Below, one piece after another: positions 8,830 to 64,000 of a stretch of DNA of 64,000 bases; position 1 is the first letter of the stretch; every line of letters starts with the position of its first letter. Below the pieces are notes generated by a model. It was not told the DNA's origin. It did no database searches and worked only from the letters and a program-made list of their open reading frames with translations. Both the position numbers and the translations under genes were made by a program. The stretch comes from Acidobacteriota bacterium (lineage in GTDB: Bacteria; Acidobacteriota; Vicinamibacteria; Vicinamibacterales; CAVVIG01): the NCBI GenBank assembly GCA_028876655.1, contig JAGWRA010000176.1:7850-71849 (forward strand), given 5' to 3'.

Positions 8830-9723
8830 ATGTCCACCCCGTCCTCCCCGCTGTCACCGTCTGCCTCGCCCCCCGCTCGGTCGCCCGCGGTCCTCAGCGG
8901 CCGCGTCCGCGATAGCGGGTTCTTCCAGTTGCCGGCGCGACCGGTCTTCGACGCCGCGCTCGTCGACGACGTCCTGTGCGGCCGGCTGGCCGGCTGCTTC
9001 TTCAAGGGGTTCGTCGACGAGGCGACCGCGGGGCGGATTGCGGCGAATTTCTGGTCGCACCCGGCGCTCGAGACGCGGAACGACAGCGTGCCCGCCTGGG
9101 TGCTCGGCACCTACCACTACGGGCGGACGCTCGACGACTACCTGGATCGGGCCGCGCACGCGCGGGCGGCGCTGGCCGGCGTGTTCACCGGCGCACGCCA
9201 CGTCTTCGACGAGGTGATGCAGGCGCTGGCCGCCCGCCTCGGCACGCGCGGGATCGCCCTGCGCGTCGCGCGCCACGGCGCGCGCGACGCCGCCCCCTTC
9301 GTCATGCGGTCCTGGCGCGGCTCGGGCGACTTCGCCCTCGACCCGCACGACGACGGGGCGCAGCTGCGGCAGCGGGCGCAGGCGGGATTCGAGATTCAGG
9401 GGATTGCCGACGAGGTGCCGGTCGTGGCGATGAACATCTGCCTCGAGAACGACGGCGACGGGCAGCTGCACTACTGGAACGTCGAGCCCGGCGAGGCCGA
9501 TCGGCGGGCGTTCGGCCTCGAAGAAACGGGCTACCCGTACCCGGTGCACGCGCTCGACGGCGTGTCGAAGCTGGTCGTGCCGGTCGAGCGGGGCGACGTG
9601 TACTTCTTCAACGGCCGGCTGATCCACGCCGTGCAGGCGCTCGGCGCCGGACACGGCTACCGGTCGACGATCTCCTGCCTGCTGGCCTTCCGCGATCCGC
9701 AGACGGTGATCTACTGGGCGTGA
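8830..9723 (+). CDS. Putative Fe(II)/2-oxoglutarate-dependent oxygenase (candidate tailoring enzyme)
   Basis: 297 aa. Motif pattern is 'ALDPHDD' (HxD), then about 100 aa later 'GRLIHAV' (distal His), then 12 aa later 'YRSTIS' (RxS). This order and spacing are typical of the 2OG-Fe(II) oxygenase facial triad plus the 2OG-binding Arg. The family call rests on motifs only. Confidence 0.5.
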   Translation: MSTPSSPLSPSASPPARSPAVLSGRVRDSGFFQLPARPVFDAALVDDVLCGRLAGCFFKGFVDEATAGRIAANFWSHPALETRNDSVPAWVLGTYHYGRTLDDYLDRAAHARAALAGVFTGARHVFDEVMQALAARLGTRGIALRVARHGARDAAPFVMRSWRGSGDFALDPHDDGAQLRQRAQAGFEIQGIADEVPVVAMNICLENDGDGQLHYWNVEPGEADRRAFGLEETGYPYPVHALDGVSKLVVPVERGDVYFFNGRLIHAVQALGAGHGYRSTISCLLAFRDPQTVIYWA

Positions 9724-9751
9724 CGGCCGCCGGCGGCCCGGCCGCCGCGTC

Positions 9752-12700
9752 TCATCCCGCCGTCTTCTCGCGCAACAGCCGCTCCACGTCCCCGGCTGAC
9801 ATCCCGTCCAGCTGCTGGCGCAGCTCGGCGATCGCCGCCAGCCGGCCCGGCACCGGATCGGCGCGCTCGAGCGCCGCCGCGAAGTGCTCGATCGTGGGCG
9901 ACTCGAAGAGCTGGCGCAGCGGCAGCTCGACGCGGAAGGCCTCGAACACGCGCCACATCACCTGCGTGGCGAGCAGCGAGTGGCCGCCGAGCGCGAAGAA
10001 GTCGTCGGTCGCGCCCACCCGCTCGGCCTGCAGCACGTCGCGCCAGATCCCCGCCAGCACCGCCTCCACCGCCGTCCGCGGCTCCACGAAGCGGCGCGCG
10101 TCGCCCGGCCGGTCGGCCGCGCGCGTCCGCAGGGCGGACCGATCGATCTTGTTGTGCGCCGTCAGCGGGAAGGCCTCGACGATCAGGATGGCCGACGGCA
10201 CCATGTAGTCGGGCAGCTTCGCGCGCAACGCCGCCAGGCAGGCCTCTTCGGTGAGCGCCACTCCGTCACGCGGCTGGACGAACGCCACGAGCCGCTTGTC
10301 TCCCGGCCGATCCGCCAGCACGAGGACGACGGCTTCCTTCACGCCGGGGACGGCCCCCAGCACGTTCTCGATTTCCCCGAGCTCGATCCGGAACCCGCGC
10401 AGCTTCACCTGGCTGTCGCGGCGGCCGAGGAACTCCATCGTCCCGTCGGCGAGGTGCCGCGCGAGGTCGCCGGTGCGGTACAGGCGGCCGCCGGGCCGGC
10501 CGAAGGGATCGGGGACGAAGCTCGCCGCCGTGAGCGCCGGCAGGTTCAGGTAGCCCCGCGCGTTCCCGTCGCCGCCGATGTAGAGATCGCCGGGAACGCC
10601 GATCGGCACCGGATTCATCCGATCGTCGAGGATGCAGGTCGTGGTGTTCGCGATCGGGGTGCCGATGGTCACCGAATGGCCGACCTGGTCGGGCCGCGTC
10701 AGGATGCCGCACGCCGCAAAGGTCGTCGTCTCGGTCGGACCGTAGCCGTTGATCAGGGTGACGCCGGGATTGGCCGCGAGCAGCTTCCGGGCGTGCGGCA
10801 CCGAGATCGCGTCGCCGCCGACCAGCAGGTGGCGGACGCCGGCGAACACCTCCACGCGCTCGTCGACCATCAGGCTGAAGAGCGCCGAGGTGAGGTAGAG
10901 CGAGGTCACGCCCTGCGTCCGGATCGTCTCGCCCAGATCGTGCAGCGACGGGATCTCGGGCGGCATGATGACCAGCTGCGCCCCGTTGGCGAGCGCGCCC
11001 CAGATCTCGAAGGTCGAGGCGTCGAACGACACCGGCGCGATCTCCAGGATCACCAGCGACGGTTCGAAGCGCATGTAGTTGGTGTCGCGCACGAGCCGGA
11101 CGACGCCCCGGTGGGGGATGCAGATGCCCTTGGGCAGGCCGGTGGAGCCCGACGTGTAGGTCGTGTAAATCAGGTTGTCGGGATGCGCGAGATTGGGCAG
11201 GTCGGCGGCCGGTTCGGCCGCCAGTTCGTCCTCCCGCTGCTCCGGGACGTACACGTCGCGGCCGAACCGGGCCAGCTCCGCGGCGCGCCCCGCAGGGGCG
11301 AGCAGCAGCCGCGCCTGGACCTGCTCGAACAGGTACCCGAGCCGATCGGGCGGGTCGCCCGGATCGAACGGCACGTAGAAGCCGCCGGCCTTCAGGATGG
11401 CGACGAGGCCGACGATCATGCCGATCGATCGTTCGGCGCAGATCGCCACGGCGACCTCCGGGCCGACGCCCCTGGCGCGCAGCCGGCGCGCCAGGCGGTT
11501 CGCGCGCGCGTTCAACTCGCCGTACGTCAGGCGCGCCGTCCCGGCGCGGAGCGCCACGGCGTCGGGCCGGCGTGCGGCTTCGGCCTCGAACAGCTCGTGG
11601 ACGCACCGGTCGCGCGGGTAGTCGGTGACCGTGTCGTTCAACTCGACGGTCACCCGGCGCCGCTCGGCGTCGGTCATGACCGGCAGGTCGGCGACGCGCG
11701 CGCCGGGGTCGGCGGCGACGGCGTGCAGCAGCACGTCGAGGTGCTCGATCGTGCGGCGGATCGTCTCGCGCTCGAAGAGGTCGGTGTTGTACTCGATGCT
11801 GCCGACCAGCCCCTCGCGCGCATCCTCCATCGTCAGCGTCAGGTCGAAGCGCGAGGTCGCCGACGGCACGTCGATCTGCTCGATCGTGAGGTCGCCGAGC
11901 CGCAGCGTGTCGCGGTGCGCCTGCAGCAGGGAGAAGGCCACCTGGAAGAGCGGGTTCTGGCTGAGCACCCGTTCGGGCTGCAGCTCCTCGACGAGCTTCT
12001 CGAACGGCACGTCCTGGCGCCCGTACGCCTCGCGCGCCACGGCGCGCACGCGGCCGACGAGCCCGGCGAACGTCGGGTTGCCCGACAGGTCGACGCGCAT
12101 GACGAGCGTGTTCGTGAAGAAGCCGATGAGGTCCTCGAGGTGGCGGTGGCCGCGATTGGCGATCGACGATCCGATCGCCAGGTCGGTCTGGCCCGTGCGG
12201 CGCGACAGCAGGACGGCGAACGCCGCCAGGAGCGTCATGAAGAGCGTGGCCCCCTCGCGGCGGCTCAGATCGTTCAGCGCGCGCGACAGGGCGACGGGCA
12301 GGACGAACGACTCGGAGGCGCCGGCATAGCTCTGCACGCCGGGCCGGGGATGGTCGGTCGGCAGCTGCAGCACCGGCACGCCCGCGAGGTACCCCTTCCA
12401 GAAGTCGAGCTGACCGCGGAGCAGGTCGCCCTGCAGCCAGCCCCGCTGCCACATGACGTAGTCCACGTACTGCACGGCGAGCGGCGGCAGCGGCGACGGC
12501 CGCCCCGCGCTGTACGCCTCGTAGAGCCGGGCCAGCTCGCGGATGATGACGCCGGACGACCAGCCGTCGGACACCAGGTGATGGATGACGACGGCCAGCA
12601 CGTGGCGATCCGGGGCGAGCGTGAGGAGCGTCGCGCGGAGGAGGGGCGGTGCCGTGAGGTCGAACGGCGTGAGGTTCTCCTCGCGGAGGCGCCGCGCGAC

Positions 12701-13204
12701 CGCGTCGTCCTGCGCGGCGGGCGGGAGTCCGGACAGCTCGATCCGCGCCAGCGTCAGGGCGGCCTCGGCCTGGATCCGCTGCGCCGGGCGGCCCTCGACG
12801 GACACGAAGCCGGTGCGCAGCGTCTCGTGCCGGCGCACGAGCTCGTTGAGGCTCCGCGCGAGCGCGTCGACCTGCAGCGCGCCCTGCAGGCGGACGGCCG
12901 CGACGATGTTGTACGCGGCGTTGCTGGCCGGGGCCAGCTGCGTGACGAACCACAACCGCTGCTGCCCGAACGACAGCGGCAGGTCGCCGGTCCGCGGCAC
13001 GGGGACGAGGTCGGCCTGCGGTTGGCCCCCCTGCTGGTCGCGCAGCAGGGCCAGCAGCGCGTCGCGATGCGCGCCGAGCCGATCGCGCAGCGCCGGCGTC
13101 AGCGCCTTTTCGGGCCCGCGCACGCGCAGGCGGCCCGCCTCCACGCGCAGGCTGAGACCCCGCGACGACAGCTCGTCGAGGAGCGCGATCAGCTCGTCCG
13201 GCAC
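9752..13204 (-). CDS. Non-ribosomal peptide synthetase, single module: docking-C-A-T (Val-like code)
   Basis: 1150 aa. C domain (LSFGQQRLWF, HHLVSDGWS). A domain ([63 protein letters not shown]). PCP ([14 protein letters not shown]). The Stachelhaus code extracted by eye is DAFYLGGTFK, nearest to the Val-type DAFWxGGTFK. Confidence 0.95.
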   Translation of the reverse strand: MPDELIALLDELSSRGLSLRVEAGRLRVRGPEKALTPALRDRLGAHRDALLALLRDQQGGQPQADLVPVPRTGDLPLSFGQQRLWFVTQLAPASNAAYNIVAAVRLQGALQVDALARSLNELVRRHETLRTGFVSVEGRPAQRIQAEAALTLARIELSGLPPAAQDDAVARRLREENLTPFDLTAPPLLRATLLTLAPDRHVLAVVIHHLVSDGWSSGVIIRELARLYEAYSAGRPSPLPPLAVQYVDYVMWQRGWLQGDLLRGQLDFWKGYLAGVPVLQLPTDHPRPGVQSYAGASESFVLPVALSRALNDLSRREGATLFMTLLAAFAVLLSRRTGQTDLAIGSSIANRGHRHLEDLIGFFTNTLVMRVDLSGNPTFAGLVGRVRAVAREAYGRQDVPFEKLVEELQPERVLSQNPLFQVAFSLLQAHRDTLRLGDLTIEQIDVPSATSRFDLTLTMEDAREGLVGSIEYNTDLFERETIRRTIEHLDVLLHAVAADPGARVADLPVMTDAERRRVTVELNDTVTDYPRDRCVHELFEAEAARRPDAVALRAGTARLTYGELNARANRLARRLRARGVGPEVAVAICAERSIGMIVGLVAILKAGGFYVPFDPGDPPDRLGYLFEQVQARLLLAPAGRAAELARFGRDVYVPEQREDELAAEPAADLPNLAHPDNLIYTTYTSGSTGLPKGICIPHRGVVRLVRDTNYMRFEPSLVILEIAPVSFDASTFEIWGALANGAQLVIMPPEIPSLHDLGETIRTQGVTSLYLTSALFSLMVDERVEVFAGVRHLLVGGDAISVPHARKLLAANPGVTLINGYGPTETTTFAACGILTRPDQVGHSVTIGTPIANTTTCILDDRMNPVPIGVPGDLYIGGDGNARGYLNLPALTAASFVPDPFGRPGGRLYRTGDLARHLADGTMEFLGRRDSQVKLRGFRIELGEIENVLGAVPGVKEAVVLVLADRPGDKRLVAFVQPRDGVALTEEACLAALRAKLPDYMVPSAILIVEAFPLTAHNKIDRSALRTRAADRPGDARRFVEPRTAVEAVLAGIWRDVLQAERVGATDDFFALGGHSLLATQVMWRVFEAFRVELPLRQLFESPTIEHFAAALERADPVPGRLAAIAELRQQLDGMSAGDVERLLREKTAG
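13031..13204 (-). other. TubC-like N-terminal (beta-hairpin) docking domain of the minus-strand NRPS
   Basis: The first ~55 aa are MPDELIALLDELSSRGLSLRVEAGRLRVRGPEKALTPALRDRLGAHRDALLALL. This matches the remembered TubC_N pattern: helix, 'G..L...gd.LR.raP.gaLtp.lr..l..hK.ellalL'. Confidence 0.55.
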
Positions 13205-13412: not shown

Positions 13413-16400
13413 ATGCCGCCATCAGATCGCTCGCCATCAGCACTTGCACGCCGGTCGTGGTTTGCGCACGCCGCCGGCGGCGACGTCGATCAGGAGGCGG
13501 CGACGATCGTCGATATTCTACGCTGGCGTGCGGCGCATCAGGCTGAAAAGCTGTCGCACCTGTTCCTGGCCGACGGCGAGCGCGACGAGATCCGGATCAC
13601 CTACGCCGGGCTCGATCGACAGGCCCGCGCGATCGCGGCCGACCTGGTGGCGCGCTGCGCGCCCGGCGAGCGGGCGCTGCTGCTCTACCCGCCCGGCCTG
13701 GAGTTCATCGCGGCCTTCTTCGGCTGCCTGTACGCCGGCATCGTCGCGGTGCCCGCCTATCCGCCGCGCAACCGCAGCCACATGCCGCGCATCAGCGCCA
13801 TCCGGGCCGACTCGGGCGCCCGCTTCGCGCTGACGACGGAGAAGACCCTCGCCGGCATCCAGGCGAATCTCGACGCCTATCCGGATCTGGCCGGCCTGCA
13901 GTGGCTGGCGACCGACGAGGTCGACGCGGCCGGGGCGGAGGGCTGGCGTCCCGCGGCGTTGGCGGCCGACGCGCTCGCGTTCCTGCAGTACACCTCGGGA
14001 TCGACCGGCATCCCGAAGGGCGTGATGGTGAGTCACGCCAACATCCTGTACGACTCGCTCTACATCCAGCGCTCGTTCTCGCTGCATCCCGGCAGCGTGT
14101 CGACGTCGTGGCTCCCCAGCTTCCACGACATGGGGCTGATCGACGGCGTCATCCAGCCGCTCTACACCGGCTTCCCCGGCATCCTGCTGTCGCCGGTCAG
14201 CTTCATCCAGAAGCCGGTCCGCTGGCTCGAGGCCGTCTCGCGCTACCGCGGCACGCACTGCGGCAGCCCGAACTTCGGCTACGACCTCTGCACGGAGAAG
14301 ATCACGCCCGAGCAGAAGGCGACGCTCGACCTGCGCTGCTGGGAGAGCGCGTACAACGGCGCCGAACCGGTGCGCAAGGACACGCTGCTGCGCTTCACCG
14401 AGGCGTTCCGCGACACCGGCTTCTCGCTGCGCGCCTTCTATCCGTGCTACGGCATGGCCGAGACGACGCTGATGGTCTCGGGCGGACACGTCACCACCGA
14501 CCCGGTGTTCTGCCGCGTCGACAAGGCGGCGCTCGAGCAGGGGATCGTGCAGGAGTCGAGCGATCCGGCTCCCGATCGCGCCGTCGACCTCGTCGGCTCC
14601 GGCCGCATGATCCTCGGCACGGACGTGCGCATCGTCGACGCCGGAACCGGGCAGCAGTGCCCCGCCGGACGGGTCGGCGAGGTCTGGGTCTCGGCGCCCA
14701 GCGTCTGCATGGGCTACTGGCAGCGCGCCGGGGAGACCGCGGCGACCTTCGAGGCGCGCACGGCCGACACGGGCGAGGGGCCGTTCCTGCGCACGGGCGA
14801 TCTGGGCTTCCTCCGCGACGGCGAGCTGTTCATCACCGGGCGGATCAAGGACCTGATCATCCTGCACGGCCGGAACCTGTATCCGCAGGACATCGAAGCG
14901 ACGGCCGAGCGGGCCCATCCGGCGCTGCGCGCCGGCGGCAACGCGGCGTTCTCGATCGACGAGGACGGCGCGGAGCGGCTCGTGCTGGTGCAGGAGCTCG
15001 AGCGGACGGCGCTCCGCAACCCCGACGTCGAGGCGATTGGCGGCGCCATCGCCCGGGCCGTGGCCGACGAGCACGAGGCGCCGATCCACGAAATCGTCCT
15101 GATCAAGACGAGCACGATCGCCAAGACGTCGAGCGGCAAGATCCAGCGCCGCGCCTGCCGCGCGCGACACCTGAGCGGCGAGCTGGAGGTCGTCGGACGC
15201 TGGCAGGACGAGGCGGTCGCCTCGCAGCCCGCGGCCGATCGCGAGCGCCTGGCGCCGCCGGAGCCCCTGGCGCCGGCCGCCGCGGCCATCGCCGCCTGGC
15301 TCGCGTCGCGGATTGCCGCCGTCACGAAGCGGCCGGTCGAGGGGATCGACGCCGCCGCACCCTTCTCCTCGTTCGGCCTCGACTCGGTCACCCTCGTGGG
15401 GCTGTCGGGCGATCTGTCGGCGTTCGTCGGCCGCGACCTGCCGCCGACGCTCCTCTACGACTTCCCGTCGATCGCGCAACTGAGCCGGACGCTCGCCGGC
15501 GCGGCCGCCACGGCAGCCCCGGGCCCCGCGCGCGGGCCGGCCACGGGACGCGGGCCGATCGCCATCGTCGGCATCGGCTGCCGGCTGCCCGGCGGCGCGC
15601 ATGGCCCCGAGGCGTTCTGGCGGCTGCTGCGCGACGGCGTCGATGCCATTGGCGAGGTGCCGGCCGATCGCTGGGACGCCGCGGCGGTCGAAGCCGCCTC
15701 GGGCGCCGGCGACGCCTGGCGCGTGCGGCTCGGCGGCTTCCTCGACGAGGTGGACCGGTTCGACGCGGAGTTCTTCGGCATCGCGCCGCGCGAGGCCGCC
15801 GGGATGGACCCGCAGCAGCGGCTGCTGCTCGAAACGGCGTGGGAAGCGCTCGAAGATGCCGGGCTGCCGCCCAGCCGCCTGAGCGGGACGCCGACCGGCG
15901 TATTCGTCGGCATCAGCACGCACGACTATCTCGCGCGCCAGCTGCACGGCGGGGACCCGGGCCGTCTCGACGCGTACAGCGGCACCGGCAACGCGTTCAG
16001 CGCGGCGGCCGGCCGGCTGTCCTACGTGCTCGGACTGCAGGGGCCGAGCCTGGCGATCGACACGGCCTGCTCTTCCTCGCTCGTCGCCGTCCACCTGGCG
16101 TGCCGCAGCCTGCAGTCGGGCGAATGCGACCTGGCGCTGGCGGGCGGCGTGAACCTGGTGCTGTCGCCCGAGATGAACGTCGCGTTCTCCCGCGCCGGCA
16201 TGCTCGCCCCCGACGGGCGCTGCAAGACGTTCGATGCCGGCGCCGACGGCTACGTCCGCGCAGAGGGCTGCGGCGTCGTCGTCCTCCGACCGCTGGCCGA
16301 CGCGGTGGCGGCCGGCGATCCGATTCTCGCCGTCGTCGCGGGGACCGCCGTCAACCAGGACGGACGGAGCAACGGCCTGACCGCCCCGAACGGCCCCGCA

Positions 16401-22116: not shown

Positions 22117-22124
<8 letters not shown>
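13413..22124 (+). CDS. Hybrid loading/PKS megasynthase: FAAL-ACP-KS-AT-DH(N half)-LLM-DH(C half)-KR-ACP
   Basis: 2903 aa. FAAL ([24 protein letters not shown], fatty-acyl-AMP-ligase-like N-terminus). ACP (FGLDSVT). KS ([51 protein letters not shown]). AT ([28 protein letters not shown], which indicates a malonyl-type AT). DH-like halves and an LLM insert are listed as separate features. KR ([21 protein letters not shown], no LDD motif). ACP ([12 protein letters not shown]). The stop overlaps the next start by 8 nt. Confidence 0.95.
18201..18570 (+). other. DH-like N-terminal hot-dog half (PKS module 1)
   Basis: Begins '[23 protein letters not shown]..', a variant of the HxxxGxxxxP motif, and runs about 120 aa to an Ala/Pro-rich linker. 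Confidence 0.45.
18615..19640 (+). other. Embedded luciferase-like monooxygenase (LLM; MupA/Atu3671-type natural-product LLM) domain, module 1
   Basis: Sequence reads '[114 protein letters not shown]...[26 protein letters not shown]...[21 protein letters not shown]'. This is the conserved pattern of FMN-dependent LLM domains found in NRPS/PKS proteins. Confidence 0.85.
19731..20135 (+). other. DH-like C-terminal hot-dog half (PKS module 1)
   Basis: '[17 protein letters not shown]' is a degenerate GxxYGPxF motif. 'LDAALQAF' matches the DxxxQ/H motif. The segment ends '..ISGFQVRRV' before the KR structural subdomain. Confidence 0.45.
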
Positions 22125-53100: not shown

Positions 53101-53551
53101 GGGCGCATTCGTCCTTCTCGACGCCCTGCCGCTGACCGCCAGCGGGAAGGTGGATCGCCAGTCGCTGCCGGCGCCGGAGGGCGCGGCGGTCGTCGCGGGC
53201 GCTGGCCGTACGGCCCCGCGCTCAGCGGTCGAGTCGCTGGTGGCCGCGTTGTGGGCCGAGCTGCTGCATCGCGAGGCGCTGGCCGTAGAGGACAACTTCT
53301 TCGAGCTGGGTGGCCACTCGCTGCTGGCCACGCAGATGCTGGCCCGCGTGAAGGACATCATGCAGACGCCGCTGCCGATGCTCAGCATCTTCGAGGCGCC
53401 GACGGTCGGCGGCTTCGCGCAGCTCATCGACGCGGCCGCCGCGTCGCCCGGACGGGCCGAGGAGATCGCACGGGCGTGGCTGACGCTGCGCCGCCTCTCG
53501 CCGGACGAGCGGGCGCGGCTGCTGGCACGGGAACACGGGGACGCGGTGTGA
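47108..53551 (+). CDS. NRPS, two modules: C(DCL-type)-A(Leu)-T-C-A(Ser)-T; no release domain
   Basis: 2147 aa. N-terminus '[19 protein letters not shown]'; [10 protein letters not shown]1 code by eye is DAWFLGNVVK (canonical Leu). T ([12 protein letters not shown]). C2 ([23 protein letters not shown]). A2 code is DVWHFSLVDK (Ser). T ([14 protein letters not shown]). The protein ends with a ~45-aa tail '..[20 protein letters not shown]' and carries no TE or R domain. Confidence 0.95.
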
Positions 53552-56722: not shown

Positions 56723-59700
56723 TCAGGACCGCGCCGGCTCGCCGGCCGGTGCCGGCGCGAGGAAGCCGATGCGGACGAAATAGTCGAAATACCGGGTCAA
56801 CAACGCCTCGTCGATGACCGGGCACGCGAGGCCGATCGTTTCCAGCGCCTCGACGGTGACGGAGCACCGCGCCTGCGGCACCGGGCCGGGCGGCGGCAGT
56901 TCCACCGACGGATCCTGCACGGCGGCCGGCGGCACGGGAAACAGCGGCAGCAGCGGCCTCAGCGCGTTGTCATCCCCGGCCGCGCAGGCCGCCACCAGCC
57001 GCTGGTGCCAGGCCCGATACGGAATCGACGCCAGCGGATAGCCACGCTCCCGGATGAAGCCGAACATCCGATCCCACTCGAAGGCATGCGGGTTGACGAC
57101 ATGGAACGCCGGCACCTGCCGGGAGGCCGGCACCCGCGACAGCCCCACGATGGCCCGGCTGACGTGATCGACCGGCGACATGTTATCGATCGGGTGGACC
57201 GCCGGTGCCGCACCGAGCTGAATGAGCCCCTTGATGGCGCGGCTGGCGAAGTCGTCGGTGTTCCACGCCCCCGTCCGGCTGTCGCCGACGATGCGCGCAG
57301 GACGATAGATGGTCACCGGCAGGCCGCGCGCGCGGGCGAGGTGCACGAGCCGCTCGGCCACCCACTTGCTCTCGGCGTAGCCGGTTGCCAGTCCCTCGGG
57401 CGGCGGCTGCCCGTCCCGCTCGCCAGCCCTGTAATACGCCGCGCCCAGCACGTCCATCGTCGAGACGTAGTGCAGCGGCTTCGTCCGGCGGCGGCAGGCG
57501 AGGCGCAGCACTTCCCGCGTCCCGCCGACGTTGGCGGCCTCGAGCGCGCGGAACGGCTGTGCGAAGTTCACGAGGGCGCCGTTGTGATAGATCGCGTCGA
57601 TGCCGGTGGCGAGATCTTCCCAGGCGGCGGCGTCGATGCCAAGCCCCGGCCGCCCGAGATCGCCAGGCACTGCCGAGATGCGCGATGCGTAAGCCGGTCT
57701 CCACAGCTCGAACGCCTCGAGCGCCCGCTGCAGTCGTTGCCGGCCCGCCTCCGCATCCGCGGCTCGCACGAGGCAGACGAGGTCGGCCGTCGTCTCCTCG
57801 AGCAGCGCCGCCAGCAGGTACGTCCCCAGGAAGCCCGTCGCCCCCGTCAGCAGGATCCGTCGTGGCTCGTCCGGCGCCACATCCTGCGCGGGCACGATGT
57901 CCTCGTCGAGCAGCGCCCGCGATTCCAGCCGGTGGGGATCGGTGGGACGCGACACGAGCGGAATGCCGGCCGCGAGCAGACGGACGGCACGGGTGAACGC
58001 CTCAACCGTCGGCGCTTCGAAGAGAACCCGCAGCGGCACGTCGACGCCGAAGACGCGTTGCACCGCCGACAACAGGCGCGCCGCCAGCATCGAGTGGCCG
58101 CCGAGATCGAAGAAATCGTCGTGAATGCTCCGCACCCCGGCGGCGAGCACCTCCGACCACAGCGCCGCCATGCGCCGCTCGTCCTCGTCACGCGGTGCCA
58201 CCGCGCCGGCCTGCTCGCCACCTGCCCGGTCCGGCACGGGCAGGGCGCGCCGATCGATCTTGCCGTTCGGCGTGAGCGGCAGGGCATCGAGCGCCATCAC
58301 CGCCGACGGGATCATGTAGCCGGGCAGCCGATCGCGGAGCGACTCGCGCAGCGCCGCTTCCTCGACCGTGACACCGGCGTGGCAGACGACGTAGGCCACG
58401 AGCCGTCGATCGCCGGGGACATCCTCGCGCACGACGACGACCGCCTGCCGGACGGTGGCATGGCGGGCGAGCGCCGCTTCGATCTCCCCCGGCTCGATCC
58501 GGTGCCCGTGCAGCTTCACCTGATCGTCGGACCGCCCGGCGAACATCACCCGCCCGTCGTCGCGGAACGCGGCGCGGTCACCCGTGCGGTACATGCGCGC
58601 GCCGGGCCTGGAGCCACGAGGCTCGGGCAGGAACCGCTCCGCCGTCATGCCCGGCTGGCCGAGGTAGCCGCGGGCCAGTCCGTCGCCGGCGATATAGAGA
58701 TCGCCGACGACGCCCGGCGGGACCGGCTCGAGCCGATCGTCGAGGACGTAGAAGCGGGTGTTCGCGATCGGCCGCCCGATCGGCACCGACCCCGGCGCGT
58801 CGTCAACTGGCTCGATCGACGACCAGATGGTCGTCTCCGTCGGTCCGTACAGGTTCCAGACCGCATGGCCCGGGCTCACACGCCGCAGGTATGCCGCGAG
58901 ATCGAGCGGCAGCGCTTCTCCCCCGGCGAGGATGCGGACGCCACCGGGATTGGTCCAGCCTGTTTCCTGCAGCAGGTGCCACGTCGCCGGGGTCGCCTGC
59001 ATCACGGTGATCCGTTCTGTCTCGAGCTGCCGCGCGAGTGCCCGTCCGTCCGACGCGGTGTCGCGGCCGGCCAGGACGACCGTCGCTCCCGTGGTGAGTG
59101 GCAGCCAGAGCTCGAGGCCGGCGATGTCGAAGGAGACCGTGGTGACCGCGAGCAACCGGTCGCTGGAATCCAGCCCGGGGTGCTGCCGCATCGCCGCGAG
59201 GAAGTTCATCACCGCCCCGTGCGGAACCTGCACCCCCTTCGGCCGGCCGGTCGAGCCGGACGTGTAGATCACGTAGGCCAGCTGCGCGGGATCCGCGGGT
59301 AGCGGCTCCGCCTGCGGCAGCTCCGCCATCCACTCTTCCCGGGTGGCGACAAGGTCGACCTCCCGGCAGGAAGGTGGCAGGGGACGCGAAGTGCGGCCAT
59401 CGGTCAGCAGCAGCGGCATGCTGGCATCCTCGATGGTGAACGCCAGGCGGTCGGGCGGAAACGACGGGTCGACCGGCACGTAGGTGCCACCGGCGCGCAG
59501 CACGGCCATCAAGGCGACGACGAGGTCGATCGACCGGTCGAGGCAGACGCCGATGCGGACTTCCGGGCCGGCACCCAGGCGGATGAGGTGCGTCGCCAGC
59601 CGCGCGGCGCGGTCGTCCAGGTCCCGGTACGTCGCGACGTCGTCTCCGCATTCGACGGCCTGCCGGTCGGGCCACTGCCTGGCCGCCGCGGCCAGGGCGA

Positions 59701-61201
59701 CCGCCAGCCCGCCACCCGCCTCGTACTTCGCCTCGGTGCGGTTCCACTCGACGAGCATCCGCTCGCGCTCGGCGGCGCCGACCAGCGGCAGAGCGGCTGG
59801 CGGGGCGTCCGGCGCCGCCACCATGGCGCCGAGCAGGTTCGTCAGGTGGTCGGTGAGACGCGCGGCCGTGGCGTCGCTGAACAGGTCGGCGCAGTACTCG
59901 AGCTGCCCCGCGAGCCGGTCGCCACGCTCCTGGACGGTGAGCGTCAGGTCGAACTTGGCGAGGCCGGCTCCCAGGTCCACCTGCTCGAGCGGCTCGTCCC
60001 CGGCGGGCTTCAGCAGGATGAGCATCACCTGGAAGATCGGGTTCCGGCTGAGATCGCGCGCCGGCTTCAGGGCGTCGACCAGTTGCTCGAACGGCAGGTC
60101 CTGGTGGGCGTGCGCGCCGAGGACGACCTCGCGGACGCCCGCCAGCGCCTCACGCACCGTCGTGCAGCCCTCGAGCCGGCAGCGCATGACGAGCGTATTG
60201 GCGAAGAGGCCGATGACGTCTTCCGTCTCGCGCCGCGTCCGGCCCGCGATCGGGCTGCCGATGGCCACATCGTCCTGTCCGGCGTACCGGGCGAGCAGCA
60301 TCGCGAAGCCGGCGAGCAGCACCATGAAGAGCGTGGCCTCGTGCGCGCGCGCGAACGCCTTCAGCGCTCTGGTGAGATCGGCGTCGAGGACAAATGCCCT
60401 GGTGCGGCCGTGGAACGACTGCACCGGCGGGCGAGGGTAGTCGGCCGGCAGTTCCAGCGGCGGGACGCCCTGCAGCGCACCAACCCAGTAGTCCAGCTGC
60501 CGCCGCTGCTCGGCTCCCTTGAACCATTCGCGCTGCCACGCGGCGTAGTCGGCGTACTGGATCGTCAGGGGCGGCAGATCGGGCTCGCGGCCCTGGGCCA
60601 CGGCGGCACTGCAGGCGAAGAACTCCCTCGCCAGCCGCTCCATCGACCAGCCGTCGGACACGACATGGTGCATGACGAACAGCAGCACGTGGCGGGAGGG
60701 CGCGAGCCGCACGAGCGTGGTCCGCAGGAGCGGCCCGGCGGCCAGATCGAACGGCTGCTCGATCCGGGCCGTCGCCGCCTGCTGCAGCGCCGCTTCCTGC
60801 CGTTCCGCCGGGACCGCGCCCAGGTCGACCAGTTCCAGCGGCAAGGCGATCGACGGAGCGATCGCCTGCACCGGCGTCCCGTCCACCTCACGGATCGTCG
60901 TGCGGAGCGTCTCGTGGCGGGCGGCAAGGATGGCGAGCGCGCGTCTCGCCCACTCGACCTCGATCGCGCCGTCGACGCGGAAGGCCAGCGCCAGGTTATA
61001 GGCCGGGCTGTCGGGCTCGAGGCGATCGAGGAACCACAGGCGCTCCTGCGCGAACGACAGCGGCGCCGTGTCCGAGGCAGGACGCCGAGGGATGGCGACC
61101 GCCGCGGGCCGCTTCGACAGCAGGTCGAAGAGGGCCCGCTTGCCGGGCGAGAGATGCGCGAGCGGATCGTGAGGCCTGTCGCTCATGCGGCCCTCAGGCA
61201 T
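56723..61201 (-). CDS. Terminal NRPS module C-A(Gly)-T-R (thioester reductase release)
   Basis: 1492 aa. An alternative start at Met6 (61186) has a GAGGG SD. C domain (LSFAQERLWFLDRLEP, HHVVSDGWS). A domain ([40 protein letters not shown]); code by eye is DILQLGLIWK, the canonical Gly code. PCP (FFDLGGHSMLAA). R domain (ILLTGATGFLGTYLL Rossmann motif, YAESK catalytic YxxxK). The start overlaps the upstream PKS stop by 8 nt if 61201 is used. Confidence 0.95.
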   Translation of the reverse strand: MPEGRMSDRPHDPLAHLSPGKRALFDLLSKRPAAVAIPRRPASDTAPLSFAQERLWFLDRLEPDSPAYNLALAFRVDGAIEVEWARRALAILAARHETLRTTIREVDGTPVQAIAPSIALPLELVDLGAVPAERQEAALQQAATARIEQPFDLAAGPLLRTTLVRLAPSRHVLLFVMHHVVSDGWSMERLAREFFACSAAVAQGREPDLPPLTIQYADYAAWQREWFKGAEQRRQLDYWVGALQGVPPLELPADYPRPPVQSFHGRTRAFVLDADLTRALKAFARAHEATLFMVLLAGFAMLLARYAGQDDVAIGSPIAGRTRRETEDVIGLFANTLVMRCRLEGCTTVREALAGVREVVLGAHAHQDLPFEQLVDALKPARDLSRNPIFQVMLILLKPAGDEPLEQVDLGAGLAKFDLTLTVQERGDRLAGQLEYCADLFSDATAARLTDHLTNLLGAMVAAPDAPPAALPLVGAAERERMLVEWNRTEAKYEAGGGLAVALAAAARQWPDRQAVECGDDVATYRDLDDRAARLATHLIRLGAGPEVRIGVCLDRSIDLVVALMAVLRAGGTYVPVDPSFPPDRLAFTIEDASMPLLLTDGRTSRPLPPSCREVDLVATREEWMAELPQAEPLPADPAQLAYVIYTSGSTGRPKGVQVPHGAVMNFLAAMRQHPGLDSSDRLLAVTTVSFDIAGLELWLPLTTGATVVLAGRDTASDGRALARQLETERITVMQATPATWHLLQETGWTNPGGVRILAGGEALPLDLAAYLRRVSPGHAVWNLYGPTETTIWSSIEPVDDAPGSVPIGRPIANTRFYVLDDRLEPVPPGVVGDLYIAGDGLARGYLGQPGMTAERFLPEPRGSRPGARMYRTGDRAAFRDDGRVMFAGRSDDQVKLHGHRIEPGEIEAALARHATVRQAVVVVREDVPGDRRLVAYVVCHAGVTVEEAALRESLRDRLPGYMIPSAVMALDALPLTPNGKIDRRALPVPDRAGGEQAGAVAPRDEDERRMAALWSEVLAAGVRSIHDDFFDLGGHSMLAARLLSAVQRVFGVDVPLRVLFEAPTVEAFTRAVRLLAAGIPLVSRPTDPHRLESRALLDEDIVPAQDVAPDEPRRILLTGATGFLGTYLLAALLEETTADLVCLVRAADAEAGRQRLQRALEAFELWRPAYASRISAVPGDLGRPGLGIDAAAWEDLATGIDAIYHNGALVNFAQPFRALEAANVGGTREVLRLACRRRTKPLHYVSTMDVLGAAYYRAGERDGQPPPEGLATGYAESKWVAERLVHLARARGLPVTIYRPARIVGDSRTGAWNTDDFASRAIKGLIQLGAAPAVHPIDNMSPVDHVSRAIVGLSRVPASRQVPAFHVVNPHAFEWDRMFGFIRERGYPLASIPYRAWHQRLVAACAAGDDNALRPLLPLFPVPPAAVQDPSVELPPPGPVPQARCSVTVEALETIGLACPVIDEALLTRYFDYFVRIGFLAPAPAGEPARS
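56726..57870 (-). other. Thioester reductase (R) domain
   Basis: Contains 'RRILLTGATGFLGTYLLAALLEE', 'DAIYHNGALVNF', 'GYAESKWVAERLV' and 'VTIYRPARIVG', the SDR-type NRPS terminal reductase pattern. Confidence 0.85.
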
Positions 61202-64000
61202 CGGGCGGACGCATCAGCTCGCGCAGCCGCGCCTCCGCCTCCTCGTCGGAGAGCCCCTCGATCTCGGCCAGCAGCCGCGCCTGTTCGCCGGCGGCGTCGG
61301 CGGCCGCCGCGAGCCGGGCGACGGTCGGCCGGTCCAGCACGTCCTTCAGCGACAGCGACAGGTCGAAATCGGCCCGGAGCCGGCTGATGAGCTGCGTGGC
61401 CAGCAACGAGTCGCCGCCCAGGTCGAAGAAGTGGTCGTCGACGCCGATTCCGGTCACGCCGAGCAGCGCCTCCCACACCCCGGCCAGCTGGCGTTCGAGG
61501 GCCGTCGCCGGCGCCCGGTAGGGCGTCGGCAGATCGGGACGCGGATGATGCGTGCGATCCGCGGCCTCCCCGGCGCCTTCCGGCGCCGTGGCGCGGGGGC
61601 GCGACGCCGGCACCGGCGCGCGCAGGGACTCGAGCCGCGAGGAGACGACGACCTGCGGCAGCCGCAAGGCCACGATCCGCGCGAAGGCCTCGCCCCCCTC
61701 GGAGGGGCTGATGCCGGCGTCGAGCGCCGCCTGGCGATCGGCCTGCAGCGACGCAGGCACCGGCGTCCCGGCCGCCATGCCGACGTCGCGCCAGGCGTCC
61801 CAGTCGATCGCCACCACGCGCGTCAGCGGGTCGGCCGCACGTGCCTGCGCGTACGCATCCAGGTAGGCGTTTGCCGCGCAGTAGTCCACCTGTCCGGCGC
61901 CGCCGGTGAGCGCCGCCACCGACGAGCAGAGCACGACGAAGTCGGGCGTATGGCGCTTCAGGACCACGTCGAGCACGCGCGTGCCGCGCAGCTTCGGCGC
62001 CAGCACGTCGTGCGCCGCGTCGAGCGTCTTCAGCTGGATTACGCCGCCACCGGCAACACCGGCCGCATGGATGACGCCGGCCAGCGGGCCGAACCGCCGG
62101 ACGGCGCGATCGAGGAGGTCCCGCATCGCCGTGCCGTCGGTGACATCCACCCCCGCCACCAGCACCTCGGCGCCCGCCGCTTCCAGCTCGCGGACGGCGG
62201 TCATCTGCGCGGCGCGTGGATCGCCGGGGTGAGCGGCCATCCACCCGTCCCACTGATCGCGCGGCAGGAGACCGCGTCGGCTCGTGAGCACGAGCTTCGG
62301 CTGCAGGGAGGCGGCCAGCCAGCGCGCGAGCGACAGGCCGACACCGCCGAGTCCGCCGGTGATGAGATACGTGCCCCCCGGGCGAAGCCCCGCCGGCACG
62401 TCCGATCCGCCGGGCCGCACGTCGAGCGACACCGGCTCGAACGCCTGCGTCCACCGGCGTCCGCCGCGGTACGCGACCAGATCGTCATCGGCGTCGAGAT
62501 CGAACTCGTCGACGACCTGTCCCGCAACCGGTCCCCACCCGCCCGTGCCCACGGGCGCCTCGACGTCGATCGCCACCGCCCGGATCGCCGGCCGTTCCGC
62601 ACGGATGACGCGCACCGGCCCCAGCACGGTGGCCTTCTCGGGAAAGCGTCCGTCGCCGCCGGCAATCTCGTGCGTGTGGCTCGTCACCACGCCGAGCCGG
62701 AAGGGACAGTCGGCCGCCCCTTCCCCGAAGGCCTGCAGCATCAGGACCAGGCTGTCGAAGCCATGACGCTGCAGCCGCTGCAGCACGCTCGGGTCGCTGA
62801 TCGGGACGTCGCGCGCGGTCACGGTCCAGAGATGCGCGACGCGATCCGGCATCAAGCCTTCGGCACGCAGGTGCGCGACGAGCGCCGCCCAGTCGTCCGG
62901 GCGCGAAGGGTCGAGCGCGCACGCGCGGGGCCCGAGCGGCGCGAAGCGCCCCCCGATCGTGACCTTTACGACGTCGGCACCGGCGGCCGTCAACCGGTCC
63001 ACGAGCGCCGCGCCCAGTCCCTGATCGTCGGCGAGCACCAGCCAGCGCGGACCCGCACCGGACCGGTCAGACGCCAGCAGACGATCGGCGGGCGACTGCC
63101 GCCAGACGGGCGCCGCGAACCACCCCGTCGTCGTCTCACGCGGCCGGGTGACGGGTGCCTCCGCCTCGGGCTCACCGCCAGCGGGAGTCACCGGCGCGGC
63201 CTGGAAGGGATCGGACCAGTAGCGCTGCCGCTCGAACGGATAGGTCGGCAGCGGCACCCGCCGTCGGCGCTCGCCGGCCCAGTAGCCGCTCCAGTCGACG
63301 TCGACCCCCTGCGTCCAGAGCGCCGCCAGCGCCCCCTGCATCCCGGCCAGGGCATCAGTCGCGTCCCCATCCTGCAGCGTCGGCACGACGAGCGTCTCGC
63401 CCGCGGCCGCATGGCGCCGGACCAATCCGGCGAGCGTGCGTCCGGGCCCGGCCTCGAGCAGCACACGCTCTTCGTCCTCGAGCAGCGTCGCCAGGCCGTC
63501 GCCGAACCGGACGGTCTCGCGAACGTGCCGCACCCAGTACTCCGGCGCGGTCGCCTCCTCCGGCGTAACCCACCGTCCGCTCACGTTCGAAACGTACGGC
63601 ACCGACGGCGCGCGCAGCGGGACCTTCGACACGGCGTCGCCGAAGGCCTCCAGCATGGGGTCCATCATGGACGAGTGGAACGCGTGGCTCGTCTCCAGCG
63701 CCGTCGCGGCCACGCCGGCCGCGGCCAACGCCCCCTCCAGCTCGCGCATGGCTCCGGTCGGGCCGGCGAGCACGCACGAGGCCGGCCCGTTGACGGCCGC
63801 CAGCGAGACGGCGTCCGTGGCGTAGCGCCGCGCGTCGGCCTCGGCCAGCGCCACCGCCAGCATCGTCCCGCCGGGCAGCGCCTGCATCAGCCGGCCGCGC
63901 AAGGCGACCAGCCGCAGCGCGCTCTCGAGGTCCATCACGCCGGCCAGGCACGCGGCCACGTACTCGCCGAGGCTGTGACCGAGCATCGCCGCCGGCCTGA
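61194..64000 (-). CDS. Type I PKS, C-terminal part (..AT-KR-ACP); N-terminus beyond window
   Basis: The reading frame stays open to the window edge (..[17 protein letters not shown] is the AT active-site GHSxG). HAFH motif (malonyl-type). Post-AT 'YPFERQRYW'. KR ([22 protein letters not shown]). Carrier domain (FFDLGGDSLLATQL). C-terminal tail '..LLAEIEGLSDEEAEARLRELMRPPDA'. Confidence 0.9.
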   Translation of the reverse strand, partial: RPAAMLGHSLGEYVAACLAGVMDLESALRLVALRGRLMQALPGGTMLAVALAEADARRYATDAVSLAAVNGPASCVLAGPTGAMRELEGALAAAGVAATALETSHAFHSSMMDPMLEAFGDAVSKVPLRAPSVPYVSNVSGRWVTPEEATAPEYWVRHVRETVRFGDGLATLLEDEERVLLEAGPGRTLAGLVRRHAAAGETLVVPTLQDGDATDALAGMQGALAALWTQGVDVDWSGYWAGERRRRVPLPTYPFERQRYWSDPFQAAPVTPAGGEPEAEAPVTRPRETTTGWFAAPVWRQSPADRLLASDRSGAGPRWLVLADDQGLGAALVDRLTAAGADVVKVTIGGRFAPLGPRACALDPSRPDDWAALVAHLRAEGLMPDRVAHLWTVTARDVPISDPSVLQRLQRHGFDSLVLMLQAFGEGAADCPFRLGVVTSHTHEIAGGDGRFPEKATVLGPVRVIRAERPAIRAVAIDVEAPVGTGGWGPVAGQVVDEFDLDADDDLVAYRGGRRWTQAFEPVSLDVRPGGSDVPAGLRPGGTYLITGGLGGVGLSLARWLAASLQPKLVLTSRRGLLPRDQWDGWMAAHPGDPRAAQMTAVRELEAAGAEVLVAGVDVTDGTAMRDLLDRAVRRFGPLAGVIHAAGVAGGGVIQLKTLDAAHDVLAPKLRGTRVLDVVLKRHTPDFVVLCSSVAALTGGAGQVDYCAANAYLDAYAQARAADPLTRVVAIDWDAWRDVGMAAGTPVPASLQADRQAALDAGISPSEGGEAFARIVALRLPQVVVSSRLESLRAPVPASRPRATAPEGAGEAADRTHHPRPDLPTPYRAPATALERQLAGVWEALLGVTGIGVDDHFFDLGGDSLLATQLISRLRADFDLSLSLKDVLDRPTVARLAAAADAAGEQARLLAEIEGLSDEEAEARLRELMRPPDA

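What the first reader, a model, noticed from the sequence alone, without database searches (positions are those of the whole stretch)
8830..64000. Giant, non-colinear FAAL-PKS/NRPS lipopeptide assembly line split over three transcription units, with reductive release only
More than 55 kb of this window, continuing past its end, is one megasynthase locus. The plus-strand operon encodes a fatty-acyl-AMP-ligase loading unit, two PKS modules and seven NRPS modules, but it ends in a bare T domain. The only release domain visible is the R domain of a C-A(Gly)-T-R protein on a convergent minus-strand operon, which also carries at least one more PKS module. A further C-A-T module is encoded divergently at the far left. 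By-eye A-domain codes give acyl-(2 ketide units)-X-Thr-[Ala-like, E]-[Ala-like]-[Ser, E]-Leu-Ser, plus Val-like, ketide and Gly. No TE or MbtH-like gene was recognised. I know of no characterised cluster with this combination, but I cannot search databases here.
Basis: partly seen in the sequence, partly recalled or inferred. Interest (0 to 1): 0.7.

Follow-up and report, generated by a model that had tools for sequence, protein, structure and literature searches.

The report
Orphan acidobacterial lipopeptide-polyketide gene cluster
This is a real, very large and uncharacterised gene cluster, from an uncultured soil-type Acidobacteriota bacterium, that builds an oxidised fatty-acid-peptide-polyketide hybrid; it is unusual in its details but it is an ordinary kind of system.

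Summary

[quoted passage not shown] - The C domain after the Thr module is a dehydrating McyA/AmbE-type domain.
- An O-carbamoyltransferase, a DUF481 gene and an Fe/2OG hydroxylase-like gene are also present.

The closest relatives are Vicinamibacterales/Acidobacteriota MAGs. Two other lineages keep the convergent plus/minus arrangement at 63-85% protein identity.

The contig ends inside the minus-strand KS. In an ortholog that operon holds at least three PKS modules before C-A(Gly)-T-R, so "Val-ketide-Gly" is too short.

My best reading is one non-colinear line of at least 14 modules that ends in reductive release (0.55). This is unproven. The start of the minus operon is unseen, and a PKS-carbamoyltransferase-DUF481 cassette stands without this NRPS operon in Opitutaceae.

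No named close homologue was found, and MIBiG could not be searched. I rate it a new member of a known kind, interest 0.4.

The parts
8830..9723 (+). Fe(II)/2-oxoglutarate oxygenase-like gene (orf297), a candidate amino-acid hydroxylase
   Evidence: NCBIfam HilA (L-isoleucine dioxygenase) 101.7 bits, below its equivalog cutoff. Weak WelO5 hit. H173-x-D175 plus a distal His point to a hydroxylase-type triad rather than a halogenase. No PDB sequence hit. Membership in the cluster was not tested in orthologs.
9752..13204 (-). NRPS_L: TubC-type N-terminal docking domain (13040-13186), LCL C (11654-12979), A with Val-like code DAFYLGGTFK (10148-11590), T (9869-10060)
   Evidence: Pfam (TubC_N 37.4 bits, cutoff 26). 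Domain map; code. A divergent neighbour of PKS1, conserved in L023.
13413..22124 (+). PKS1: FAAL (13527-15191), ACP (15309-15485), KS (15555-16673), AT with HAFH motif (17112-18056), DH N-half (18201-18617), LLM (18636-19568), DH C-half (19689-20162), KR with W motif (20904-21479), ACP (21783-21980)
   Evidence: Pfam. FAAL families in NCBIfam and TIGR04020 at 489 bits, cutoff 244. The post-LLM piece aligns to CurJ DH residues 147-303, including the catalytic Asp. HPLLG His in the N-half. Best PDB hit for the LLM is the PuwE Ox domain 6KET, 5e-118.
22117..28029 (+). PKS2: KS (22225-23349), AT with QAFH motif (23806-24744), LLM (24997-25929), KR (26851-27423), ACP (27763-27942); no DH
   Evidence: Pfam. 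TIGR04020 at 469 bits. Motifs. Identical to database protein P0001.
28038..31406 (+). NRPS1: C-A-T, A code DAHIMTHVVK (substrate unknown)
   Evidence: Start at ATG 28038. The ortholog code DAHILTHV-K is conserved in L023.
31412..39334 (+). NRPS2: C-A(Thr)-T, CmodAA-type C (34766-36076), A(Ala-like)-T-E
   Evidence: The second C is only 26-29% identical to the other C domains. Its best PDB matches are McyA 8jbr (1.4e-112) and AmbE CmodAA 7r9x (4e-64); the next hit is 1.9e-43. E motifs.
39338..47092 (+). NRPS3: DCL-A(Ala-like)-T, LCL-A(Ser)-T-E
47108..53551 (+). NRPS4: DCL-A(Leu)-T, LCL-A(Ser)-T; ends in T plus a 40-aa tail, with no TE or R
   Evidence: The ortholog in L020 is 73% identical with the same codes.
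53646..54656 (+). DUF481 protein, conserved partner of the carbamoyltransferase
   Evidence: Pfam. Found next to the carbamoyltransferase in L001/L020/L048 at about 75% identity, and weakly (22-26%) in seven Opitutaceae loci.
54710..56710 (-). O-carbamoyltransferase (NovN/GdmN type)
   Evidence: Pfam Carbam_trans_N and Carbam_trans_C. Full-length PDB matches NovN 9s2t and GdmN 7vyj, E about 1e-165. Lies 12 nt downstream of NRPS_R.
56723..61201 (-). NRPS_R: C (59759-61066), A(Gly) (58259-59692), T (57986-58174), thioester reductase R (56762-57856)
   Evidence: Pfam. TIGR01746 at 369 bits. Code DILQLGLIWK. TGATGFLG and YAESK. Orthologs are 71% identical and keep the Gly code.
61194..64000 (-). 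PKS_R: C-terminal 934 aa (AT-KR-ACP) of a KS-AT-KR-ACP protein that runs out of the window and is cut by the contig end
   Evidence: Pfam. The full database copy P0281 (1536 aa) starts 'RFPGAP' inside the KS. The ortholog is 1561 aa, KS-AT-KR-ACP.

Best explanation
This is a single biosynthetic gene cluster from a Vicinamibacterales-like Acidobacteriota bacterium. It encodes one long, non-colinear hybrid PKS/NRPS assembly line.

Shown from the sequence:
- A FAAL-ACP didomain would load a fatty acid.
- Two malonyl-type PKS modules would extend it. Each carries an in-line FMN-dependent LLM domain.
- Seven NRPS modules would add X, Thr, D-Ala-like, Ala-like, D-Ser, Leu and Ser.
- The C domain after the Thr module is of the dehydrating CmodAA type.

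Inferred steps:
- The LLM domains oxidise the ACP-bound ketide. Alpha-hydroxylation is most likely, by analogy with the PuwE Ox domain. In module 1 this would act together with an apparently intact KR and DH. The result would be a polyoxygenated acyl head.
- Thr becomes dehydrobutyrine.
- The chain leaves NRPS4's terminal T domain and passes through the stand-alone Val-like module NRPS_L. Its exact place is unresolved: after NRPS4, or between PKS2 and NRPS1.
- The chain then enters the convergent operon. By orthology this operon holds KS-AT-KR-ACP, KS-AT-KR-DH-ER-ACP and KS-AT-KR-ACP, then C-A(Gly)-T-R.
- The R domain releases a C-terminal glycinal or ethanolamine.
- The NovN/GdmN-type enzyme O-carbamoylates one hydroxyl. 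The acceptor is unknown.
- The HilA-like oxygenase may supply a hydroxylated amino acid, for example for the unknown A domain.
For: Individual elements:
- LLM: TIGR04020 at 489 and 469 bits; closest solved relative is the PuwE Ox domain, assigned to the 2-hydroxy group of puwainaphycin's fatty acid (PMC4219810).
- DH halves keep their His and Asp.
- CmodAA assignment.
- R domain intact.
- Carbamoyltransferase.

Complementarity of the units:
- The plus line has a loader but no release domain, and ends in T plus a tail.
- NRPS_L has an N-terminal docking domain and an LCL, non-starter C domain.
- The minus line has the only release domain.
- Its furthest-upstream protein seen in L048 (1517 aa; the visible part is AT-KR-ACP and Pfam lists a KS) is about the size of PKS_R. 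That leaves no room for a loading domain.

Conservation:
- The NRPS3/NRPS4-DUF481 and CarbT-NRPS_R-PKS_R arrangement is kept in L001 and L020/L048 at 63-85% identity with the same A codes.
- NRPS_L-PKS1-PKS2-NRPS1 is kept in L023.
- In L022 the same FAAL/LLM head is followed on one strand by KS-AT-KR-ACP-type PKS genes of similar size (1530, 1516 and 2230 aa).
- This KS class sits directly after NRPS modules in another cluster.
- L006 shows a second acidobacterial cluster where PKS-C-A-T-R-CarbT lies beside further NRPS genes.
Against: - The start of the minus operon was not seen in any genome. The window contig ends in the KS, and L048 reaches only 10 kb upstream. A dedicated loader there cannot be excluded.
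- The PKS(KS-AT-KR-DH-ER-ACP)-CarbT-DUF481 cassette exists in Opitutaceae. In L011 an unrelated adenylate cyclase follows DUF481. The cassette is therefore an evolutionary unit of its own, and DUF481 marks its edge exactly where NRPS4 abuts it.
- L022's tail modules are only 41-47% identical to L048's, which is generic similarity.
- Docking tails gave no discriminating signal. PKS2's '..EIEI' tail is conserved whatever the downstream partner.
- Synteny among fairly close relatives could persist without a functional link.
- The LLM chemistry is by analogy only. For the related microsclerodermin MOX domain a different oxidation was proposed (PMC6163206).
Confidence: 0.55

Rival explanations
1. 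Two independent assembly lines happen to lie tail to tail. One is a FAAL-primed lipo-octa/nonapeptide line (plus operon with NRPS_L) released by an enzyme encoded elsewhere. The other is a separate PKS-(Gly)-R line with its carbamoyltransferase and DUF481, which has its own loader upstream of what could be seen.
For: - The PKS-CarbT-DUF481 cassette occurs in Opitutaceae without a flanking NRPS operon in L011.
- The distant relative L024 has at least 4 PKS modules before C-A-T-R-CarbT.
- The FAAL/LLM head occurs with a different tail in L022.
- The start of the minus operon is unseen.
Against: - The plus line would have no release function within 64 kb.
- No loader lies within 10 kb upstream of PKS_R in L048.
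- The juxtaposition is conserved in three lineages.
- The two halves are exactly complementary: a loader on one side only, a release domain on the other side only.
Confidence: 0.3
2. It is one line, but with a different module order. NRPS_L (Val-like) acts between PKS2 and NRPS1, docking its TubC-type domain onto PKS2's short acidic '..LTEIEI' tail. NRPS4 then hands the chain directly to the first minus-strand KS.
For: - NRPS_L is the only protein with a beta-hairpin-type docking domain.
- PKS2 is the only carrier-ending protein that lacks the 'LSxEE..LL' helical tail.
- NRPS1, NRPS2 and NRPS_R share a similar N-terminal helix. In the two known pairs this helix follows an 'LSxEE' tail.
Against: - PKS2 and NRPS1 are separated by 8 nt.
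- The '..EIEI' tail is also present in L022, where the next protein starts with a KS and no TubC-type partner is seen. The tail therefore does not track the partner type.
Confidence: 0.2
3. The cluster is an already characterised one, or a close congener, that I failed to recognise.
For: MIBiG, antiSMASH and BiG-SCAPE could not be run. The literature library is limited to open-access texts.
Against: - The best named hit to PKS2 is AjuB, at 56% identity over 45% of the query.
- No named hit to PKS_R exceeds 49%.
- All relatives above 60% identity are unnamed metagenome or MAG proteins.
- Literature searches for Acidobacteria/Vicinamibacter lipopeptides and for reductase-carbamoyltransferase systems found nothing matching.
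Confidence: 0.05

Closest known systems
Puwainaphycin/minutissamide synthetase (PuwC-D FAAL/ACP, PuwB, PuwE with its Ox domain; PDB 6KET)
   Same: Both use FAAL-ACP priming of a fatty acid, PKS extension before the first C domain, and an in-line LLM-type Ox domain. LLM1 matches the PuwE Ox domain at 5e-118. Puwainaphycins also contain Dhb (fragmentation data in PMC4219810).
   Different: Here there is no aminotransferase domain. There are two consecutive LLM-bearing modules, one with the LLM inside a DH. There is no TE or macrocyclisation. The line is reductive and continues into PKS modules.
Microcystin McyA and AmbE CmodAA dehydrating condensation domains
   Same: The C domain after the Thr module is closest to McyA (1.4e-112) and AmbE CmodAA (4e-64). 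The layout A(Ser/Thr)-T-C-A(Ala)-T-E mirrors my recollection of McyA, A(Ser)-M-T-C-A(Ala)-T-E.
   Different: There is no N-methyltransferase. The substrate is Thr. Dehydration is not demonstrated.
Linear gramicidin LgrD and myxalamid MxaA terminal C-A-T-R modules
   Same: A terminal C-A(Gly)-T-R with an intact thioester reductase. By my own knowledge, LgrD reduces Gly to the aldehyde, which is then converted to ethanolamine.
   Different: The upstream donor is a PKS ACP. A carbamoyltransferase follows in the same operon. No LgrE-like aldoreductase was seen.
NovN, GdmN and Asm21 post-assembly O-carbamoyltransferases
   Same: Full-length similarity at E about 1e-165.
   Different: The acceptor hydroxyl is unknown. 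The gene sits in a conserved pairing with a DUF481 gene and a KS-AT-KR(-DH-ER)-ACP PKS across Acidobacteriota and Opitutaceae.
Large orphan NRPS/PKS clusters of soil Acidobacteria (Crits-Christoph et al. 2018; cited from my own knowledge)
   Same: A giant hybrid cluster in an uncultured soil Acidobacteriota lineage with no known product.
   Different: The order is Vicinamibacterales-like, and the domain combination is the specific one described here.

Membership tests
FAAL-primed hybrid PKS/NRPS lipopeptide synthetases (puwainaphycin/iturin type) | FAAL-ACP loading didomain at the head of the line | tested here: met
   AMP-binding plus PP-binding at PKS1 residues 39-691. The best NCBIfam hits are FAAL families (PRK05850 422 bits, FadD32 406 bits), all below their full-length cutoffs.
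FAAL-primed hybrid PKS/NRPS lipopeptide synthetases (puwainaphycin/iturin type) | Aminotransferase domain that makes a beta-amino fatty acid | tested here: not met
   No aminotransferase family hit in PKS1 or PKS2.
FAAL-primed hybrid PKS/NRPS lipopeptide synthetases (puwainaphycin/iturin type) | Terminal TE and macrocyclisation | tested here: not met
   No thioesterase domain in any protein of the window. An R domain is present instead.
TIGR04020 natural-product LLM domains (MupA/Atu3671 family) | Score above the curated cutoff over the full-length model | tested here: met
   489 and 469 bits against a cutoff of 244, covering model positions 1-335 of 341.
TIGR04020 natural-product LLM domains (MupA/Atu3671 family) | FMN-dependent oxygenation of a carrier-bound intermediate | not testable with these tools
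   Rests on analogy only: the PuwE Ox domain and the LLM domains reviewed in PMC8739492.
CmodAA dehydrating condensation domains | Sequence clusters with McyA/AmbE rather than with LCL, DCL or E domains | tested here: met
   (McyA 380 bits and AmbE 220 bits, against 152 bits or less for the rest). (26-29% identity to the LCL and DCL domains of the window, 18-21% to its E domains).
CmodAA dehydrating condensation domains | Located directly downstream of a Ser/Thr-activating module | tested here: met
   It follows A(DFWNVGMVHK, Thr)-T in NRPS2.
CmodAA dehydrating condensation domains | Dehydration activity yielding Dha or Dhb | not testable with these tools
   Needs the product structure or an in vitro assay.
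NRPS terminal thioester reductase (R) release modules | C-terminal SDR domain after a T domain, with a GxxGxxG motif and catalytic YxxxK | tested here: met
   TIGR01746 at 369 bits, cutoff 213. TGATGFLG and YAESK. Position after the T domain.
NRPS terminal thioester reductase (R) release modules | Two- versus four-electron reduction, and the nature of the released terminus | not testable with these tools
   Cannot be read from the sequence.
NovN/GdmN-type O-carbamoyltransferases | Both Carbam_trans_N and Carbam_trans_C domains, with full-length similarity to characterised members | tested here: met
   (143.5 and 230 bits). (residues 1-664 aligned to NovN and GdmN).
TubC-type beta-hairpin docking domain pairs | N-terminal TubC_N domain | tested here: met
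   PF18563 at 37.4 bits, cutoff 26, on NRPS_L residues 7-55. Conserved in L023.
TubC-type beta-hairpin docking domain pairs | Identifiable partner tail on the upstream protein | tested here: inconclusive
   The tail comparison across the window, L022, L023 and L048 did not single out a partner.
Single colinear or non-colinear assembly line (one BGC) | The units co-occur across genomes | tested here: inconclusive
   They are kept together in the window, L001 and L020/L048. Both halves also occur with other partners in more distant genomes.

The most novel reading that the evidence does not exclude
The locus encodes a single assembly line of at least 14 modules, split over three units. Its product would be a new chemotype: a polyoxygenated fatty acyl head, a Dhb- and D-residue-containing peptide, a reduced polyketide spacer and a carbamoylated, reductively released Gly terminus. 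Its first module would represent a recurrent module type, KS-AT-DH(N-half)-LLM-DH(C-half)-KR-ACP, that I could not find described. About 18 of the top 150 database representatives span the whole arrangement. About 50 more are roughly 1150-aa proteins that begin at the LLM; the three I scanned are LLM-DH(C)-KR-ACP. In this module type, oxygenation and dehydration would be coupled on one carrier-bound intermediate.
Probability: 0.3. Interest if true: 0.6.

Novelty: new member of a known kind. Interest (0 to 1): 0.4.

Why it matters
If it is one line, it is a concrete and conserved target for heterologous expression or synthetic-bioinformatic synthesis, from a phylum with almost no characterised natural products. 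It would also be a natural example of a long assembly line whose release module lies in a convergent operon.

The LLM inserted between the two hot-dog halves of a DH recurs widely in public data. It deserves biochemical study because the chemistry of in-line LLM/Ox domains in cis-AT PKS modules is still largely inferred.

Otherwise it is one more orphan hybrid BGC.

Tried and rejected
1. Myxobacterial origin. I first suspected this from the GC content, the TubC_N domain and the TonB receptor. I rejected it because the closest loci are Acidobacteriota/Vicinamibacterales MAGs.
2. Extending the window's own contig. It is masked from look-ups. P0281 shows that it ends inside the KS about 1.8 kb past the window.
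3. Searching with the ER-ACP fragment of L020 to walk upstream. This returned only short contigs and the distant L024.
4. The metagenome scan with PKS_R. It gave only a 10-kb ortholog contig, L025.
5. Bengamide as a precedent for tandem alpha-hydroxylating modules. I rejected it because bengamide uses methoxymalonyl-ACP extender units (PMC6163206).
6. Myxoglucamide as a relative. It has a different architecture, with a discrete C-FMN monooxygenase protein and a TE.
7. The hypothesis that PKS2's acidic tail is a specific partner for NRPS_L's docking domain. The L022 control was inconclusive.
8. Orthology between L022's tail PKSs and L048's minus-operon PKSs. They share only 41-47% identity.
9. 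A strict pairing of the R domain with the carbamoyltransferase. The Opitutaceae loci have the carbamoyltransferase after an ACP-ending PKS and no R domain. A terminal-alcohol acceptor is therefore only one option.
10. Promoter and terminator scans of the divergent and convergent gaps. They found nothing.
11. P0380 as a possible relative. It lies in an unrelated small NRPS-PKS cluster.

Full report
**What is in the sequence**

The window is about 72% G+C. Third-position GC picks one clear frame per gene.

From 9.7 kb to the right end, nearly every base belongs to megasynthase genes. The only gaps longer than 60 nt are the 208-nt divergent spacer at 13205-13412 and 94 nt after NRPS4.

Pfam scans and a local domain map built from window exemplars give these genes:
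- NRPS_L, 9752-13204(-): TubC_N dock-C-A-T.
- PKS1, 13413-22124(+): FAAL-ACP-KS-AT-DH/LLM-KR-ACP.
- PKS2, 22117-28029(+): KS-AT-LLM-KR-ACP.
- NRPS1, 28038-31406(+): C-A-T.
- NRPS2, 31412-39334(+): C-A-T-C-A-T-E.
- NRPS3, 39338-47092(+): C-A-T-C-A-T-E.
- NRPS4, 47108-53551(+): C-A-T-C-A-T.
- DUF481, 53646-54656(+).
- A carbamoyltransferase, 54710-56710(-).
- NRPS_R, 56723-61201(-): C-A-T-R.
- PKS_R, 61194->64000(-): ..AT-KR-ACP.

Plus-strand junctions are overlaps or gaps of 3-15 nt. PKS_R, NRPS_R and the carbamoyltransferase are equally tight. These are two operons plus the divergent NRPS_L.

I aligned the nine A domains to a GrsA fragment recalled from memory; its numbering is self-consistent with the published positions. 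The ten-residue codes are DAHIMTHVVK (unknown), Thr, two Ala-like, Ser, Leu, Ser, Val-like and Gly.
- Both E domains carry the E2 and E5-E7 signatures, and the NRPS2 E domain also has E4.
- The C domains that follow them form a separate DCL-like pair.
- The R domain passes TIGR01746 and keeps its nucleotide-binding and YxxxK motifs.
- No TE domain and no MbtH motif occur in the window.

1. Each plus-strand PKS module contains a luciferase-like monooxygenase domain of the natural-product family TIGR04020 (489 and 469 bits, cutoff 244). The closest solved relative is the Ox domain of PuwE, 6KET, at 5e-118. That domain was assigned to the 2-hydroxy group of the puwainaphycin fatty acid (PMC4219810). 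Other in-line LLMs have likewise been proposed as alpha-hydroxylases (PMC8739492). For the microsclerodermin MOX domain, however, a different oxidation was proposed (PMC6163206).
2. In module 1 the LLM is inserted between the two hot-dog halves of a DH.
   - The N-half (Pfam PKS_DH_N) keeps HPLLG.
   - The post-LLM piece aligns to CurJ DH residues 147-303, with the catalytic Asp in LDAALQ.
   - A search of 1.84 billion representatives with DH(N)-LLM-DH(C) found 2009 relatives at E<=1e-30.
   - About 18 of the best 150 span the whole arrangement.
   - About 50 are roughly 1150-aa proteins that begin at the LLM. The three I scanned with Pfam are LLM-DH(C)-KR-ACP.
   - The architecture is therefore recurrent. 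I found no description of it in the held literature.
3. The C domain after the Thr module is not LCL or DCL (26-29% identity to those domains). It is closest to McyA and to the AmbE CmodAA domain. This predicts dehydrobutyrine.
4. The carbamoyltransferase aligns over its full length to NovN and GdmN.
5. The ORF at 8830-9723 is an HxD..H oxygenase most like the isoleucine dioxygenase HilA, at a sub-threshold score.

**Source and relatives**

A genome scan with the carbamoyltransferase returned Acidobacteriota/Vicinamibacterales MAGs at 83-85% identity. Opitutaceae followed at 60-64%.

L001 and L020 keep NRPS3/NRPS4-DUF481 convergent with CarbT-NRPS_R-PKS_R at 63-85% identity. They have the same Leu, Ser and Gly codes. 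L023 keeps NRPS_L-PKS1-PKS2-NRPS1 at 73-82% identity.

The window's own contig is 73,653 bp. It ends inside the KS of PKS_R, because P0281 (1536 aa) begins 'RFPGAP'.

L048 is the same population as L020 (identical tails). It shows the operon as PKS_A (1517 aa; the visible part is AT-KR-ACP, Pfam lists a KS, and the start was not reached), PKS_B (2214 aa, KS-AT-KR-DH-ER-ACP), PKS_R (1561 aa), C-A(Gly)-T-R and CarbT. At least three ketide extensions therefore precede Gly.

**One line or two**

For one line:
- The loader and the release domain sit on opposite units.
- NRPS_L is a stand-alone elongation module with docking elements.
- The arrangement is conserved in three lineages.
- In L022 the same head is followed on one strand by PKS genes of the same general class.
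- This KS class follows NRPS modules elsewhere.

Against:
- The operon start is unseen.
- The KS-AT-KR-DH-ER-ACP/CarbT/DUF481 cassette occurs in Opitutaceae. In L011 an unrelated gene lies beyond DUF481.
- A distant relative has four or more PKS modules before C-A-T-R.
- Docking tails did not resolve partners or the position of NRPS_L.

I put the single-line model at 0.55 and independent neighbouring lines at 0.3.

**Comparison and verdict**

Each element has a precedent:
- FAAL priming and the Ox domain in puwainaphycin.
- CmodAA in McyA and AmbE.
- Gly-R in linear gramicidin (my own knowledge).
- Carbamoylation by NovN and GdmN.

No named protein is close. The best named hit is AjuB at 56% identity over 45% of PKS2, and nothing named exceeds 49% for PKS_R. 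Literature searches found no matching product. MIBiG could not be queried.

This is a real, conserved, orphan hybrid BGC: a new member of a known kind with an uncommon domain combination. Interest is 0.4.

Noticed in passing
window 8178-9110 (-): A DUF697 gene. The Pfam hit covers only the C-terminal ~130 aa, so the true start is probably near 8700 and the apparent overlap with orf297 is probably an artefact of the ORF call. A DUF697 gene also sits next to the FAAL/LLM head in L022 (60% identity) and near the carbamoyltransferase in L018 (48%). It may be a recurrent neighbour of these clusters.
   Followed up: partly
window 53646-54656 (+); L004, L007, L009, L011, L015, L016 downstream of CarbT: A DUF481 gene lies convergent to the carbamoyltransferase in the acidobacterial orthologs (about 75% identity). 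It also does so, at 22-26% identity, in seven Opitutaceae loci. The pairing is cross-phylum and its role is unknown; export or self-protection is a guess.
   Followed up: partly
L048 3360-10004; L011 2970-9557: These PKS modules have the non-canonical order KS-AT-KR-DH-ER-ACP, with KR before DH and ER. The carrier domains of this PKS class look PCP-like (FFxLGGDSL, preceded by an 'APRTExE' linker).
   Followed up: partly
database representatives P0143, P0146, P0158 and about 50 others: A large family of roughly 1150-aa proteins starts directly at the LLM. The three I scanned with Pfam are LLM-DH(C-half)-KR-ACP. This implies modules split between two proteins at the DH(N)/LLM boundary, or systematic gene-call truncation.
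   Followed up: no
L006 5570-11992 and 13290-21992: Another Acidobacteriota cluster has C-A(Ser code DVWHISLVDK)-T-R followed by the carbamoyltransferase. Further NRPS modules then follow on the same strand, so the release module sits in the middle of the gene order.
   Followed up: partly
L013 15542-16477 (Cohnella faecalis): An LLM domain (44% identity to LLM1) appears to be inserted within an NRPS A domain, next to a 48%-identical carbamoyltransferase.
   Followed up: no
window 819-7826: The left flank is unrelated housekeeping or sensing genes: an FGE-sulfatase-like protein (819-1709 +), a TonB-dependent receptor with a CarboxypepD_reg domain (1675-4389 -), a CHASE-PAS histidine kinase (4470-6761 -) and an FAA-hydrolase family protein (7059-7826 +). 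This is the likely left boundary of the cluster.
   Followed up: partly
window 34469-34654, 37658-37852 and 45422-45607: The T domain before the CmodAA domain carries the 'GGDSI' serine motif, as do the two T domains that precede E domains. The other NRPS T domains detected by the motif search have 'GGHSL'.
   Followed up: no
window 23806-24744: The AT of PKS2 has QAFHS instead of the malonyl-type HAFH motif found in AT1 and the PKS_R AT. Its extender-unit specificity is uncertain.
   Followed up: no
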